Assembly: GCA_963676395.1 (NCBI GenBank) | Contig: OY781066.1 | Coordinates: forward strand, 96,001 to 160,000 | DNA: 64,000 nt | Direction of reading: 5' to 3' | DNA from: a bacterium | Lineage (GTDB): Bacteria > Fidelibacterota > Fidelibacteria > Fidelibacterales > Fidelibacteraceae | Shown here: piece by piece, positions 18,001-24,000 of the stretch | Numbering within the stretch: position 1 is the first letter of the stretch | Layout of the letters: the number at the start of each line of letters is the position of its first letter | Program-made: the position numbers

Positions 18001-21000
18001 GTCGATAAATGCTACGGTTTATTCCATGGTGTCAATATTAAGGTCGTCAAATGCGGTGGTCTTACTCCCGCAAAGCGAATGGCCTTGCGCGCCAGAGAAT
18101 TAGGTATGAAAGTGATGGTGGGTTGTATGACAGAATCGACCGTAGGTATTTCGGGGATCGCTCAACTTCTTCCTCTTTTAGATTATGTAGACATGGACGG
18201 TCCAATTCTTCTTGCCAAAGATATTGCTACCGGCGTACGTATCAATAAAGGTGTCGTATCTTATTCCAAAATAAAAGGTAATGGTGTTGTATTAACCGGG
18301 TTCACCGAATAGGAAAAACTATGAGTGATATAAAAAATAATAAAGTACTTCTTTCTTGGAAAGTCCACATGGCTAAGCACAATATCTCACGAGCCATTTC
18401 AGCGCTGATTCTCATCTTGATTTGTGTTTACTTTGTTAACCTTACACTTGAGGATGGATTTTTAACCTTGGTTTCGTTTTTCGTTCTATTAATGATGGTT
18501 CTCCCCTACTATTTACCTAATACCTTTATCTTAAGCGATGAAGGAGTTGAAAAAAAAATGTTATTCTCAAAGCAGACACGTAAATGGAGTGAATTCCATC
18601 GCTATGAGGTTGGCAAGAATGCCGTTAATCTTTATACCATGAATAAAAAATCGCGCCTTGACAATTATCGCTCGTTTTTGATCATTTGTCATCAAAATAA
18701 AGATAAAGTGATAAAGATCGTTGAAGAAAAGCTTAAAATAAATGAGAAACGAGAGCCTTGACAAATCGATAGAAGTAATTTTAAGAAACAATAAGGCATA
18801 TATCTAAAGAGAGACGAAAGGTTTATGTGATCAAATTTGCATAGTTACAATTTCCGCACATTCCAGAAAAAGCGATAGATTGGGCACTAAAGATCAAATT
18901 AGTTTAACTACCATAGCATATTTAAATCGATTAGAATATAGACTAGCTTAGCATGGAGTCTGTATTAATAAAAGGCTTTTCATAAAGATCGTAATCTTAG
19001 CGATAACCCACACCTACAAATAGAAATTTCATACGAAAAAATGCAAGCAAATAAGCAGCTAAACACACACAATTATTTAAACCATAGATCACTAGGAACA
19101 AAGCAAATCTAAGCTCTTTATTATATTGTTCTTCGAACCTTTTATGCTTATATTTTTCCGTTGTAGTAAATCATAGTACTCTTTAATATAGATTTTGAAT
19201 GTTACTATACCATTATTGGGGTTTATAAGGTTTGGAAGATAAAGTATTCGAACAAGAAATGATTGAAAAAATAGCTTCGACAGTAGTCAGACGTCGTTTA
19301 TCTGTGCCGGCTATCCTATTCATGGAAGTTTTAAAGCCATTATCGTTTTTTGGAGCCCAAACTTTGAATTTTTTTGGCCCAATTATTGAATCTCTTATGA
19401 AGAAAGAAAATCGATATTATGATTTTACTTCTTTCCTTGAAGAAAGAAAAAATATCGAAAAGATCCTTGTGCGTATTGAGGAACTTGAGAATGAGAGACC
19501 GCACCCCCCCCAAAAGAATAAAAAAAACAGAAAAAAAGATAAAAAAGACAAACATCATACATTGCAATTGGAGGATTAAATGATGTTAAAACGTACAACA
19601 TGTTTACTGATCCTTCTATTGGGAGTGTTCAGCTTTGCATTTGCCGGCTTGGGAATCCATGCCGAGGCAGAGATAGGCGAACCGGAAGGCAGCATCGTAA
19701 AGATCAGCCTGACCCCGATTGAAGAAGCCAGTATTTACATTGTCGAAAAAAATACGGGTACACATAAGTGGTTGCCTGTGTTAGAAACTGCCAACATGGA
19801 GTTTGAGACGAATATTGACAATGAAGTTGCCACAACATTTAAGGTAACAGCATTGGACAGTGATCGTAAAATTCTTGCGACTGCAGTATCCGAGGCCGTA
19901 ACCACTCACGCAAAATGGTTCAACCATCTACGTTTGAACCGTTTTATCGCACTAATCGTGATTTGCGGTACCATCTTGTTCTATATTTCACGAGCAAGAA
20001 AGAACAAAAAGATTTATATGCGTCCCGTTGCCGGTCTGCAGGCTTTTGAAGAAGCCGTTGGTCGTGCCACAGAGATGGGGCGTTCGGTACTATTCGTACC
20101 CGGTATTATGGATCTTGATCAGGTTGAAACCATTTCCGGTTTGATCATTCTTGGACACGTTTCAAAAATGACAGCACGTTATGAAGCGGATCTAAATGTT
20201 CCTGTATCTCGTTCTTTGGTAATGGAATCAGGACGCGAAACGGTTCAAGCATCCTATATTTCCGAAGGTCGTCCGGATCTATATTCATCTAACATGGTTC
20301 AGTACTATACCGATGACCAGTTCGCCTTTGCTGCGGCTGTAGATGGTGTAATGCTTCGCGAAAAACCTGCTGCAGTATTTCTGCAGGGCAAGTTTTATGC
20401 GGAATCACTGATCATGGCTGAAACCGGTAACTCTATCGGCGCTATACAGATTGCCGGTACCGGATCACCTTCTCAGATCCCATTTTTTGTTACAGCTTGT
20501 GATTACACTCTTATCGGTGAAGAATTTTTTGCCGCATCAGCTTATCTTGGCGACGATCCTAAGCTTTTAGGTTCGATCAAAGGTCAGGATATTGTAAAAG
20601 GTATCCTTATAGCTGCAATCGGCTTGGGTGTAATTCTTGAAACATTTAATTTAAATTTCTTTAAAAACCTGTTCGCAGGGTCATAAATAAGAGGAAAACA
20701 ACATGTTTTGGAAAAGAACAATTCCAGCTATCATTGTTGCTGCAGTCGGTGTGATCATGCTGCTGTCATGGTTCATCCCTCATGAACCTTTTGGTTCGCT
20801 TGAGACCCATGCGACACAATGGTACGATATCATCGCAAGTTTTGCGATGATCCTCGGAGCTTTAAACTTGCTAAGACTCCAAGGAAATAAAGTCATTAAA
20901 CAAAAGAAAGGTTGGCCTTATGCCTTAGCAGCCGTCATTGCCTTCTTTATGACATTAACCTTTGGCTTTGTTGTTAAAGGTGGATTTTATCCCAACATAA

Positions 21001-24000
21001 CATCAGTTGGTGATAATCCCGAAGCCGTATATCTAAAAATCGCTCAAGTGATCGATACAGACGGAAACGTTAGTGAAGAAGATGTTGCCGAAGTTCGCGC
21101 TTTGTATGCAATCCCCGGTCCCGATGGAGAAAAAGTACTTCTTCATAAGGCCGTTGTCTCTAAAAGAATGGCTCAAAAAGTCGTTGATGAATTAAATACT
21201 CTAGGTGCTACAGCTTCGGTGGGTGAATTAAAATGGGGCTCTCATGTTCAAGGTAATAAAACATACTACAGCTGGGTATTCTACTCATTCTTCACTCCCC
21301 TATCAGCAACGATGTTTGCTTTATTAGCTTTCTTTGTTGCCTCAGCTTCTTACCGTGCATTCAAAATACGTAATGCTGAAGCAACGGTTTTACTGGTTTC
21401 CGGTATCCTTATCATGCTTGGTCGTGTTCCTTTAGGTGCATATCTAACAGCATGGACACAAAACATTCCATGGCTATCCTGGTTCCATTTACCGGTAATA
21501 CAGGAATGGTTATATCAGTACCCGAATGCCGCAGGTGCCCGTGCCATTATGATCGGTATCGGTCTTGGTATCGTTGGTACATCACTTCGCGTGATCCTCG
21601 GTATTGAAAAATCATTCATGGGAGGTGATTAAAATGGCTAAAAACAGATCAAAAGCATATACGAATTTAAGCAATAATTTTAAAGACATTCTTGAAAAGT
21701 TCGTAAACTTTCTTGCTAAATTGGACGGTCTTGATCGCCGAATCATCTTCTTGATTATTGGCCTTGTAGTGCTCTTCCCTCTCCTTGTTCCACTGGGTTT
21801 ACCCATTGAAACAACACAGTTGACCGAAGATGCTTTCTACGCTATCGATGAACTACCTACAGATGCCAAAGTATTGGTGTCATTTGAATACGGTCCTTCG
21901 ACCAAACCCGAGATTCACCCTATGGCTATTTCCGTACTACGTCACCTTTTCTCTAAAGGTAACAAAGTTGTAGTAATGTGCCTGTGGCCTGACGGGTTAT
22001 TTATGGCTAATGAAGCTCTAGATCTCGTAGCTAATAAAGAATTTGGACTTAAATATGGTGTTGATTATGTGAACCTCGGCTACCGTCCCGGCAACGAAGC
22101 GATCATTAAAGGTATTACAAAGAGTTTTAAAGCTAACTTTTCTATCGACTCAAAGGGTACCAACATCACAGAGATTCCCATTATGCACGATGTACAGACA
22201 GCTAAAGATGTTGATTTCATCTTCTCATTGTCTGCCGGTTATCCCGGAGCCATCGAATGGGTTCTATATGCCGGTGATCCTCTGCAAGTCCCCGTATCCA
22301 GTGGTAATACGTCCATTCAGGTCAACCAGTTACTTCCTTATGTGAAGTCCGGGCAAATGAGAGGTATTGTTGCAGGTATGCCGGGTGCGGCAGAATATGA
22401 GACTATGGTCATTCGTAAACTCGAAGAGAACATTGGTCCTATTACAGATCACGCAAGAACACTATTACCTAACTTCAAAGAAAGACGAAATGCAACAAAG
22501 TTCATGGATGCGCAATCCATTGCTCACCTTGTGATCGTTCTTTTTATTATCCTGGGTAATATTTCATTTCTTGTTAAACGTAAAAAACAGAAAAAATACT
22601 AGGAGGTAATTCATGTATATAGGAATTTTAGGTGCATGGATCGCCGTCTTTTTGACATTATCCATCTTGAGTTATCTCTATGAAGACAATGTCTTCTATA
22701 AGCTGGCAGAGCACATCTTTGTTGGTGTTTCTGCTGCACACTGGGCAACCATTGCTTTTTGGAACCAGGTACAGCCTAACCTATTTGGTCGTTTATGGCC
22801 ACAAGCGGAAGTTGCTTCACTTGAAGGTTTCCAAAAGTTTTGGTATGGTATTTACCACGGTCTGCATGCTGTTTTCGGTAAGATATTTCCCGAAGCTACT
22901 GTAAACGGAGTTCTGTATCGTGGTATTGGTGATCAGCCTCAAAACCTCAGCTACCTTTTTGCTTTTGTTTTGGGAGTATTTATGCTTTTCCGCCTTATCC
23001 CTAAGATTGGTTGGCTAAGTCGCTGGTCATTAGCATACGTTATTGGTATGGCTGCCGGTCTTCGTCTTTATGGTTACATGAGTTCGGATGTTATCGGTCA
23101 GGTACACGCAACGATGTTGCCATTATGGACAGGTAATCTCGGTTCAAGTATCAACAATATCATCTTGATCGTAGGTGTATTGACCGGACTATTCTATTTC
23201 TTCTTCTCTGTAGAACACAAAGGCGCGCTGAAAGTTGTATCCAGGATCGGTATTTACTTCCTGATGATCTACTTTGGTGCATCATTCGGTTTTGCCGTTA
23301 TGGGTCGTATTTCATTGCTTATCGGTCGTTTTAATGACCTTATCCTTTATTCAGGGAAAGAGTACGGATTCGCTACGCCCATCATTCTTATCTTGATGAT
23401 CGTAGTTCTCGTTCTCACCACAAGAAAGAAAAAGCCTGAAGAAGAAGTCTAGTCATAGACGAATAAGTGATTAATCAATTAATCGACTTATGATTCAAAT
23501 AAATAAAAACCTCGAAGAAATTCGGGGTTTTTTATTTCCAACCTTAATGCTATTTAGCTGAAATCATCTCAATGTAAATATTGCTTTAATCCAATTTGTC
23601 ATTCACTCATTTAAATATTAATTTCCCTATTACGCCTATATTATTAACTGCATGAAATATTATTTCCGAATTTCATGTCATTTTATTATTTTTATACATT
23701 AAATGGAATAAACATGAAAACACTCAAATTCACACTTTCTACCCACAGTAGAACTTCCTTTACGGACATTACTCGTCAACTTCAAAGCATTCTTGATAAA
23801 AACAATTGCAATAGCGGGATCATGTGTGTGTTTACAACACATACAACCGCCGCTATTACCATCAATGAAAATGCGGACCCAAATGTACAACATGACCTAA
23901 AATATAAGCTAAACGATATGATTCCCAAAAATGAAACACCATATCGACACGCCGAAGGAAATAGTGACAGTCACATGAAGTCATCTCTCTTTTCACCATC

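What a model noticed while it worked through the whole genome (the two positions that open the first line are those of the whole stretch)
19259..23452. Seven-gene MutL/GlmL-like ATPase plus four-membrane-protein module without glutamate mutase, split over two loci
g00104-g00108 (one small protein, DUF6754 and three unannotated membrane proteins) and g01026-g01025 (MutL/GlmL-family protein and an unannotated 375-aa protein, 1186005-1188990) lie 1.07 Mb apart here but form one operon in many phyla. It is a highly conserved, uncharacterised membrane system that occurs without the glutamate mutase after which MutL is named.
Evidence so far: In 80 loci of g01025 homologues (Fidelibacterota, Zixibacteria, WOR-3, Ignavibacteria, Fermentibacteria, Planctomycetota and others) g01026 was adjacent in 60, g00104 in 34, g00105 in 33, g00106 and g00107 in 30, g00108 in 28, many loci being cut short. 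g01025 has at least 8,000 homologues, about 56% identity across phyla, nearly all unnamed; 1,576 clusters at E 1e-10, two of about 1,000 aa with the match at the C-terminus. Model shows biotinyl-like, RraA-like and KOW-like parts. No glutamate mutase rows in the tables. Glycine-cleavage genes precede the module in 8-10 of 80 loci.
(Added by a program. Inside this text positions count along the whole contig: contig position 96,001 is position 1 of the stretch shown here. "Call 12" and the like, gene names such as g00115 and contig names such as C1 are that model's own, and its searches are not shown. The text may have been shortened before it was handed on; [...] marks where a part breaks off. 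The agent that wrote the report below was given it as the finding of a first reader that could run no searches.)

Follow-up and report, generated by a model that had tools for sequence, protein, structure and literature searches.

The report
Unstudied ATPase-driven membrane uptake machine
These genes belong to a widespread but unstudied system in which one actin-fold ATPase unit appears to serve interchangeable four-protein membrane modules, most likely to import peptides or amino acids by a route unlike known transporters.

Summary
The window holds six (Z, A, B=DUF6754, C, D, E). The GlmL-like ATPase M and its partner N lie 1.07 Mb away. In 151 genomes of the phylum, B, M and N occur in the same 103, and none of the 103 has glutamate mutase above cut-off. 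One genome has single copies of A, M and N against six B genes and five BCDE cassettes, so one shared unit probably serves exchangeable membrane modules. B has a predicted cytoplasmic sirtuin/transhydrogenase-like Rossmann domain; D has a predicted outside domain, and D varies most among the three subunits compared. In at least 24 of the 103 genomes an OppA-type gene lies just upstream, and in seven fetched loci the module sits between oppC and oppD. Best reading: an ATP-driven importer of peptides or amino acids (0.45). A PTS-type histidine relay or biotin/lipoyl carrier role for N is not supported. No binding or activity is shown; the complex predictor was unavailable. Eight literature searches found no description. 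This scan noted the same system before in other genomes.

The parts
17275..18312 (+). Context only: enolase-superfamily dipeptide epimerase-like gene directly upstream of Z; it holds this position in 4 of 4 same-genus loci examined and was not seen there in the loci from other genera in that call
   Evidence: MR_MLE domains; DgcA and L-Ala-D/L-Glu epimerase models below cut-off; neighbours
18321..18761 (+). Z: 146-aa protein, two N-terminal hydrophobic segments and a soluble domain; eighth gene of the system, travels with A
   Evidence: Homologues in 21 of 80 N loci; profile hit E 1e-32 to this ORF; no Pfam family
18762..19231 (.). AT-rich spacer (30% GC) between Z and A; only its 3' part is conserved in the genus; no stable fold; likely promoter region
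19232..19579 (+). A: small conserved protein without a strong membrane helix; single copy even where BCDE is multiplied; candidate adaptor for the two out-of-window partners M (603-aa GlmL-like ASKHA protein, contig 1187179-1188990, minus) and N (375-aa hybrid/swivel/KOW protein, contig 1186005-1187132, minus)
   Evidence: Alignment A7; hydropathy; one copy in each of 5 genomes; M and N:
19580..20686 (+). B (DUF6754): signal peptide, optional outside FN3-like domain, TM, predicted cytoplasmic Rossmann-like (DHS-like) domain, TM
   Evidence: model of a 50%-identical homologue and fold searches
20703..21632 (+). C: integral membrane protein, six predicted TM helices, conserved Arg/Glu/Ser residues, no family
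21634..22602 (+). D: TM, ~240-aa domain predicted outside the cytoplasm, TM; the most variable of B, C and D between cassettes; candidate ligand-binding subunit
   Evidence: only unnamed clusters in the Atlas; not folded
22613..23452 (+). E: integral membrane protein (four segments pass the hydropathy threshold, more are likely), invariant Glu, His, Arg and Asp residues, no family
23501..23537 (+). Hairpin with U-tract after E, probably an intrinsic terminator
   Evidence: -14.4 kcal/mol, z -3.6, 1 of 200 shuffles as stable; not listed by the consensus scan

Best explanation
The eight genes encode one membrane machine with two layers. A shared cytoplasmic unit, the ASKHA ATPase M with partner N and probably held at the membrane by A and Z, binds and hydrolyses ATP. 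It acts on a four-subunit membrane cassette B-C-D-E, of which a cell may have one to five or six versions. D's outside domain recognises the solute, C and E form the pathway, and B's conserved cytoplasmic Rossmann domain is the docking site for M/N. The most likely job is uptake of peptides or amino acids for catabolism, organised like ECF or PTS systems (one energiser, many specificity modules) but built from unrelated folds. Shown: gene content, co-occurrence, copy numbers, M-N fusion, predicted folds of N and B, gene neighbourhood. Inferred: topology, ATP hydrolysis, physical contact of M/N with B, transport, direction and substrate. I put the one-system architecture at about 0.9 and the peptide/amino-acid importer function at about 0.45.
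For: B, M and N are present in the same 103 of 151 genomes, and D in those plus one fragmented genome. The system is kept in 12 of 13 streamlined genomes of 0.8-1.1 Mb, a group in which 0 of 13 has an OppA-type binding protein. G154 has 1 A, 1 M and 1 N against 6 B and five BCDE cassettes at four loci; G153 has 1/1/1 against 5 B matches. Paralogous cassettes of one genome are deeply diverged, with B core 48-68%, C 39-53% and D 31-48% identical in 13 pairs, as expected of a conserved docking domain and a variable recognition domain. M's nucleotide-binding motifs are intact in 50, 50, 50 and 45 of 50 sequences. M and N are one ORF in 7 of 103 carriers and in P0144 and P0169. Topology puts B's domain inside and D's outside. 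The module sits between oppC and oppD in 7 fetched loci counting partial order: fully in L092 and L207, L208, L209, L011, L110, L135. An OppA-type gene lies within about 9 kb upstream of M in 24 of 103 carriers from 7 families (searches compared by eye). That OppA is closest to B. subtilis oligopeptide-binding AppA (E 6e-76; next hit 2e-42). Other operon neighbours in 172 loci include lysine 6-transaminase (20), P6C dehydrogenase (18), GcvPB (13) and an M6 protease (4).
Against: No transport, ATPase or binding data exist. The commonest operon neighbours are housekeeping genes: CdsA-like 33, RlpA 27 and lipid kinase 24 of 172 loci. The lysine and opp links come mostly from related marine genomes of one phylum and are not independent. 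In the window's own genome the only OppA-type gene is unlinked. Many carriers also keep Opp systems, so the module does not replace them. No known solute-binding fold is shown for D, which was not folded. No ASKHA-driven solute transporter is known to me (recalled). B's nucleotide-binding-type fold could equally be catalytic. No riboswitch points to a substrate in 20 sources scanned.
Confidence: 0.45

Rival explanations
1. A membrane enzyme complex of amino-acid catabolism rather than an importer. M activates a substrate with ATP, as hydantoinase/oxoprolinase-type ASKHA subunits do, or makes ATP. B's DHS-like domain binds a nucleotide cofactor, and C/E translocate ions, in analogy to transhydrogenase or Na+-pumping decarboxylases.
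For: B's best fold matches are nucleotide-binding DHS-like domains: Sir2 Z 11.9 (rmsd 3.3, 138 aligned), transhydrogenase dIII Z 9.6, CODH/ACS epsilon Z 9.2. M has weak Hydantoinase_A and Hydant_A_N hits (E 3e-5 to 6e-3). Invariant charged residues lie in or near the membrane segments of C, D and E. The lysine- and glycine-degrading neighbours fit this reading too.
Against: No Cys is conserved at 80% or more in C, D, E or N, and no Lys in N. Five or six deeply diverged cassettes per single ATPase fit substrate diversification better than one core energy pump. In the wide search B's DHS-like hits are tied with GT-B and kinase folds (Z 10.1-10.2).
Confidence: 0.2
2. A cobalamin or other cofactor importer/loader. 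M keeps the ancestral GlmL link to B12, and the system supplies B12 to methylmalonyl-CoA mutase in a phylum that lacks known B12 permeases.
For: GlmL is described as a chaperone that reactivates glutamate mutase (PMC4682846, figure legend). Methylmalonyl-CoA mutase is in 144 of 151 genomes, and all 7 without it lack the module. FecCD/BtuC and CobS are each found in only 1 of 151. An EcfT-type gene is listed in 31 of 48 non-carriers but 31 of 103 carriers (counted from the rows, E <= 1e-10).
Against: 41 of 48 non-carriers also have the mutase. The genome's one above-cut-off cobalamin riboswitch heads a different operon, and none lies in the module loci scanned. Five to six cassettes are hard to explain for one vitamin. 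The genomes are related, so the correlations are overstated.
Confidence: 0.12
3. A chaperone, assembly or export device. M/N remodel BCDE, or a client bound to it, in the manner of dehydratase reactivases, for example to move peptides or proteins outward or to signal across the membrane.
For: N consists of mobile or adaptor folds (barrel-sandwich hybrid, swivel, KOW). An ASKHA ATPase with a swivelling domain is the layout of diol dehydratase reactivase (recalled). Earlier scan notes report M/N beside MacB/FtsX genes in some Bacillota (not checked here). B often carries outside FN3-like domains.
Against: No regulator or secretion genes are among the frequent operon neighbours that I annotated. 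The opp nesting and the catabolic neighbours point inward.
Confidence: 0.15
4. PTS-like group translocation. M phosphorylates N's swivel domain, which passes the phosphate to B and then to the incoming solute.
For: N's top fold matches are the phospho-histidine domains of PTS enzyme I (Z 9.3, rmsd 2.8, 107 aligned) and rifampin phosphotransferase (Z 9.0). A shared soluble unit with many membrane modules is the PTS layout. B has a Cys conserved in 94% of sequences.
Against: No His, Cys or Lys is conserved at 80% or more in 100 N sequences, and positions 222-225, which I take by eye to match the phospho-His site, are variable (Asp in at most 50%). RraA and pyruvate-kinase domains are tied within 1 Z unit.
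Confidence: 0.08

Closest known systems
GlmL/MutL accessory protein of glutamate (methylaspartate) mutase and the GlmL-related Or-4 protein (PF13941; NF040745, NF040744, TIGR01319)
   Same: M matches the whole Pfam domain (430 bits) and carries the same kind of nucleotide-binding motifs.
   Different: M scores far below the NCBIfam cut-offs (237/475, 230/600, 162/204). It has a ~115-aa extension and a constant partner N, it goes with membrane genes, and it occurs without GlmE in all 103 carriers.
ECF transporters (shared EcfA/A'/T module with many S components; recalled)
   Same: One energising unit in single copy with several dispersed specificity modules.
   Different: The ATPase is ASKHA-type, not ABC-type. 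The modules have four subunits with large soluble domains, and no CbiQ or ABC family matches any subunit at cut-off.
PEP:sugar phosphotransferase system (EI/HPr with several EII complexes; recalled)
   Same: Shared soluble part and multiple membrane complexes; N has the fold of the EI phospho-His domain.
   Different: No conserved His in N, no PEP-binding domain, and an ATP-binding ASKHA protein in its place.
Proton-translocating transhydrogenase domain III and sirtuins (DHS-like NAD/FAD-binding fold)
   Same: B has a membrane-tethered domain of this general fold (Z 9.6 to dIII, 11.9 to Sir2).
   Different: Identity is 11-12%, other Rossmann folds score within 1-2 Z units, and none of the other subunits was shown to resemble transhydrogenase.
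Hydantoinase/oxoprolinase-type ATP-dependent amidohydrolase subunit A (PF01968, PF05378)
   Same: Weak sequence similarity at the ASKHA motifs.
   Different: The weak hits fall below cut-off for the window's M, and no HyuB-type partner was seen among the neighbour clusters examined.

Membership tests
GlmL/MutL glutamate-mutase accessory protein | Match to PF13941 above cut-off | tested here: met
   430 bits against cut-off 27
GlmL/MutL glutamate-mutase accessory protein | Score above the equivalog cut-offs NF040745 / NF040744 / TIGR01319 | tested here: not met
   237/475, 230/600, 162/204
GlmL/MutL glutamate-mutase accessory protein | Glutamate mutase E subunit in the operon or genome | tested here: not met
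   0 in own genome; above cut-off in 1 of 151 genomes, G104, which lacks the module
GlmL-related ornithine/lysine aminomutase accessory protein | Aminomutase large subunit (PF09043) in the genome | tested here: inconclusive
   0 matches, but no control genome rang
ASKHA ATPase superfamily | Phosphate-1, phosphate-2 and adenosine motifs (motif names recalled) | tested here: met
   50, 50 and 45 of 50 sequences; weak MreB-like_C and Hydantoinase_A hits
ASKHA ATPase superfamily | ATP hydrolysis | not testable with these tools
   Needs an assay
ECF / ABC importer | ABC-type ATPase and EcfT or ABC permease among the subunits | tested here: not met
   No such family at cut-off for A-E, M, N or Z
PTS | Conserved phospho-His in the swivelling domain | tested here: not met
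   No His conserved at 80% or more in 100 N sequences
Biotin/lipoyl carrier protein | Conserved modified Lys in the hybrid domain | tested here: not met
   No Lys conserved at 80% or more in N
DHS-like NAD/FAD-binding domain (for B) | Structural match standing above other Rossmann folds | tested here: inconclusive
   Sir2 Z 11.3-11.9 leads, but it ties with LpxB and PGK at Z 10.1-10.2; model of a homologue
DHS-like NAD/FAD-binding domain (for B) | Binds a dinucleotide | not testable with these tools
   Needs a binding assay
RnfA/E or NqrD/E type redox membrane pair (for C/E) | Conserved Cys ligands for an Fe-S centre (recalled) | tested here: not met
   No Cys conserved at 80% or more in C or E; C and E not detectably related to each other

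The most novel reading that the evidence does not exclude
A new class of primary active importer driven by an actin/Hsp70-fold ATPase. One M-N-A(-Z) motor energises several interchangeable BCDE permeases, possibly built from inverted-topology paralogues B and D, and supplies peptides or amino acids to many uncultured protein-degrading lineages, including streamlined ocean bacteria that lack Opp-type binding proteins.
Probability: 0.4. Interest if true: 0.9.

Novelty: categorically new. Interest (0 to 1): 0.75.

Why it matters
To my knowledge (recalled), ATP-driven solute import rests on ABC/ECF and P-type ATPases, and no actin/Hsp70-fold ATPase is known to power a permease. This system is in 103 of 151 sampled genomes of one phylum and in loci whose records name more than ten other lineages. 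It is kept in genomes of about 1 Mb, and M is 64-72% identical across lineages, yet M falls in a family named after a glutamate-mutase helper and the other genes are hypothetical or DUF. If it is an importer, it adds a transporter class and fills a gap in how uncultured peptide-degrading bacteria feed. If it is an enzyme complex or B12 device, it still corrects a widespread mis-annotation. All eight proteins are defined, so the question can be tested by expression in a laboratory strain.

Tried and rejected
B and D as inverted paralogues: the order of strands and helices looks alike by eye, but hhalign gave 0.4-2.8% probability and a profile alignment scored below block-shuffled controls (21.1 against 22.9 +/- 3.1), so it is not shown. 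C versus E: no similarity. The B-peptidase S49 fusion in G154: none of the 120 listed hits covers both halves, so it was treated as a one-off or an assembly artefact and not used. The D-E fusion P0278 is from the same genome and has one member; it was not used, and alignment A9 built on it was misaligned and discarded. A muropeptide-specific importer: carriers include groups without MurA (f1, 0 of 14) and with MurA (f10, 13 of 13), and some non-carriers lack MurA, so there is no specific link. Riboswitch search: only tRNAs in 20 sources. Sequence searches of the PDB: nothing significant for M or D, and only FN3 domains for B. Atlas: only unnamed clusters for D, no usable named hit for B, and no structures held. 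B not found in the plasmid collection. Promoter and terminator scan at chance level. Searches listed only papers on other subjects, judged from listings and abstract starts. The library lacks most subscription journals, and no supplements were opened.
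Full report
Observation. They end in a hairpin with a U-tract at 23501-23537 (z -3.6). I label them A to E. Only B has a family, DUF6754. The GlmL-like gene M and its partner N lie outside the window at contig 1187179-1188990 and 1186005-1187132. Each of A-E, M and N is single copy in this genome. Close homologues of N are named Marinimicrobia or Fidelibacterota, which is probably the phylum of this genome. A sixth gene in the window, Z (18321-18761), also belongs to the system. 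Its homologues occur in 21 of 80 loci, nearly always directly before A, and a profile of them hits this ORF at E 1e-32. Z is often missing (1 of 80 D-centred, mostly marine loci), so it is accessory.

Is it one system? In 80 loci of N homologues, M, A, B, C, D and E were found in 59, 36, 36, 34, 29 and 27, and 26 loci hold M, N, B, C, D and E together. The link is not universal at locus level: of 32 loci of at least 20 kb, 17 hold B. The genome-level test is stronger. In one sample of 151 genomes of the phylum, B, M and N each occur in 103, with the same handles listed, and D occurs in those plus one fragmented genome. These genomes are related, so this is not 151 independent tests, but presence and absence are mixed within several families (f7 1/2, f17 2/4, f18 15/22, f27 2/3). 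The split seen here is recent. A sister genus and a sister family keep the order M-N-Z-A-B-C-D-E (L091, L202, L203), while Z-A-B-C-D-E stands apart from M-N in this genus and one other. Five genomes from other lineages each hold A, B, M and N. M and N form one ORF of about 1,000 aa in 7 of the 103 carriers.

No glutamate mutase. A six-frame search finds no GlmE in this single-contig, 95%-complete genome. In the sample it passes cut-off once, in a genome without the module. The aminomutase search was uninformative because no control rang. Of the genome's four B12-binding domains I read two: one looks like the methylmalonyl-CoA mutase small subunit and one like a methyltransferase corrinoid protein (by eye). 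M passes Pfam MutL but falls well below the three NCBIfam GlmL cut-offs. GlmL itself is described as a chaperone that reactivates glutamate mutase (PMC4682846; I saw one figure legend and one reference entry).

Anatomy of the soluble unit. M is 64-72% identical to 48 homologues from other lineages, and four nucleotide-site motifs are kept in 45-50 of 50 sequences. It is probably an active ATPase or kinase, which is inferred. It has no significant sequence match in the PDB. N folds confidently (pLDDT 93) into two barrel-sandwich hybrid domains, a swivelling domain and a KOW-like domain. The swivelling domain is closest to the phospho-His domain of PTS enzyme I (Z 9.3, rmsd 2.8, 107 residues), tied with rifampin phosphotransferase, RraA and pyruvate kinase. 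No His, Lys or Cys is conserved at 80% in 100 N sequences; the conserved polar residues are Thr, Glu, Gln, Arg and Asn. This argues against a His relay and against a biotin or lipoyl carrier.

Anatomy of the membrane cassette. Hydropathy and the positive-inside rule give the following. B has a signal peptide, an optional outside domain, a TM helix, an inside domain and a second TM helix. D has a TM helix, an outside domain and a TM helix. C has six helices and E at least four. B's optional part is FN3-like. A 292-aa homologue of B, 50% identical to the window's protein, folds as a Rossmann-like domain between long helices (pLDDT 89). Its best matches are sirtuins (Z 11.3-11.9), with transhydrogenase dIII (9.6) and CODH/ACS epsilon (9.2) among the next rows, but GT-B and kinase folds tie in the wide search, and Foldseek gave nothing at E 0.001. 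D was not folded. By eye B and D share an order of elements in opposite orientations, but three profile tests failed to show homology.

One motor, many cassettes. BCDE is repeated in tandem in loci such as L017, L019, L033, L036, L048, L080 and L085, beside one M and N. G154, a single-chromosome record, has one A, one M and one N, but six B genes and five BCDE cassettes at four places; short masked stretches interrupt some of these genes. In 13 within-genome pairs the B core is 48-68% identical, C 39-53% and D 31-48%, about as far apart as the average over all 44 cassettes compared (B 60%, D 43%). A conserved inside domain facing a single ATPase and a variable outside domain is what shared-energiser importers show. 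This is an inference by analogy.

Substrate clues. In seven fetched loci the module is nested in an oligopeptide-type ABC operon, as oppA-oppB-oppC-[module]-oppD (L092; six of the eight loci; L120 shows oppB-oppC-[module], and L074 has only OppA upstream). These loci were picked because an opp link was suspected, and L110 may duplicate L207. Comparing by eye, an OppA-type gene lies within about 9 kb upstream of M in 24 of 103 carriers from seven families; 11 matches were not listed. The OppA of L092 is closest to B. subtilis AppA. Among same-strand neighbours in 172 loci, lysine 6-transaminase occurs in 20, P6C dehydrogenase in 18, an OppD-like ATPase in 13 and GcvPB in 13 (51 proteins were annotated, 44 cluster representatives out of 150 clusters plus seven extra genes). 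In the window the upstream gene resembles a dipeptide epimerase. Against this, housekeeping genes are the commonest neighbours (CdsA-like 33, RlpA 27, lipid kinase 24), the marine loci are related to each other, and one G154 cassette lies beside what looks like a sugar ABC operon (by eye). The streamlined family f10 keeps the module (12 of 13) without any OppA-type protein (0 of 13). The peptide reading was prompted by earlier scan notes; the opp test is my own.

Rivals. A B12 role stays open. The phylum has methylmalonyl-CoA mutase (144 of 151) but almost no BtuC-type permease or CobS (1 of 151 each). However, 41 of 48 non-carriers also have the mutase, and this genome's cobalamin riboswitch heads another operon. 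A catabolic or ion-pumping enzyme complex is suggested by B's fold and by M's weak hydantoinase similarity. A muropeptide-specific role was considered because Fidelibacter multiformis and its class depend on outside muropeptides (PMC11652737; I saw 12 passages) and this genome lacks MurA, but MurA status does not track the module.

Novelty and verdict. Eight searches of the paper library found no description; subscription journals and supplements were not covered. This scan noted the system at least eight times in other genomes; these are unchecked notes and not support. M is a new variant of the GlmL family, and the system as a whole matches no transporter or enzyme complex I could test or recall. 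Physical contact was not tested because the complex predictor was unavailable, and no RNA run was listed. One-system architecture about 0.9; peptide/amino-acid importer 0.45; interest 0.75.

Noticed in passing
151-genome phylum sample: Methylmalonyl-CoA mutase is in 144 genomes, but a FecCD/BtuC permease and CobS are each in only one (the same genome, which lacks the mutase). The phylum seems to have no recognised inner-membrane B12 importer.
   Followed up: partly
G000:C1:212503-219591 (minus strand): A cobalamin riboswitch precedes genes of 688, 442 and 1134 aa, which look by eye like a TonB receptor, a partner and a secreted protein. No inner-membrane permease gene was seen there.
   Followed up: partly
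G000 and family f1: MurA is not found in this genome or in 14 family members, in line with the muropeptide dependence reported for one class of the phylum in PMC11652737.
   Followed up: partly
L015:2657-3451, L080:9196-9969 and 10 more loci: An unannotated ~265-aa protein with a signal peptide and a C-terminal TM helix lies directly after M, before N, in 12 of 80 loci, mostly Zixibacteria/Ignavibacteria-labelled records; no Pfam or NCBIfam hit.
   Followed up: partly
L185:9324-11708; L187:6542-8254: G154 has a B gene fused to the C-terminal half of an SppA (S49) peptidase and a D-E fusion. Both are singletons and may be assembly or sequencing artefacts.
   Followed up: yes
P0190, P0212, P0218, P0256; P0277; P0279-P0281: Longer N forms (450-475 aa) with an extra hybrid repeat; a D with a tandem outside domain; D forms fused to a zinc-ribbon and a long acidic region.
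   Followed up: no
window 14962-16864 (minus): A 381-aa gene and a 251-aa gene that resemble the archaeal-type homocysteine-forming sulfurtransferase and its ApbE-like partner (recalled, not searched). The pair is absent at this position in 3 of 4 same-genus loci.
   Followed up: no
window 24501-28010 (minus): A 1169-aa secreted protein with propeller-like repeats, a possible cysteine-peptidase domain and a secretion-tail-like C-terminus (by eye).
   Followed up: no
window 55405-56019 (plus): A lone EcfT/CbiQ-like gene (E 2e-14) between an unrelated gene and a truA-like gene, with no ECF ATPase seen beside it.
   Followed up: no
window 18762-19231: The spacer between Z and A is about 470 bp here and 420 bp in one relative, about 155 bp in three others of the genus, and absent in sister genera; no repeat copy elsewhere in the genome.
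   Followed up: partly
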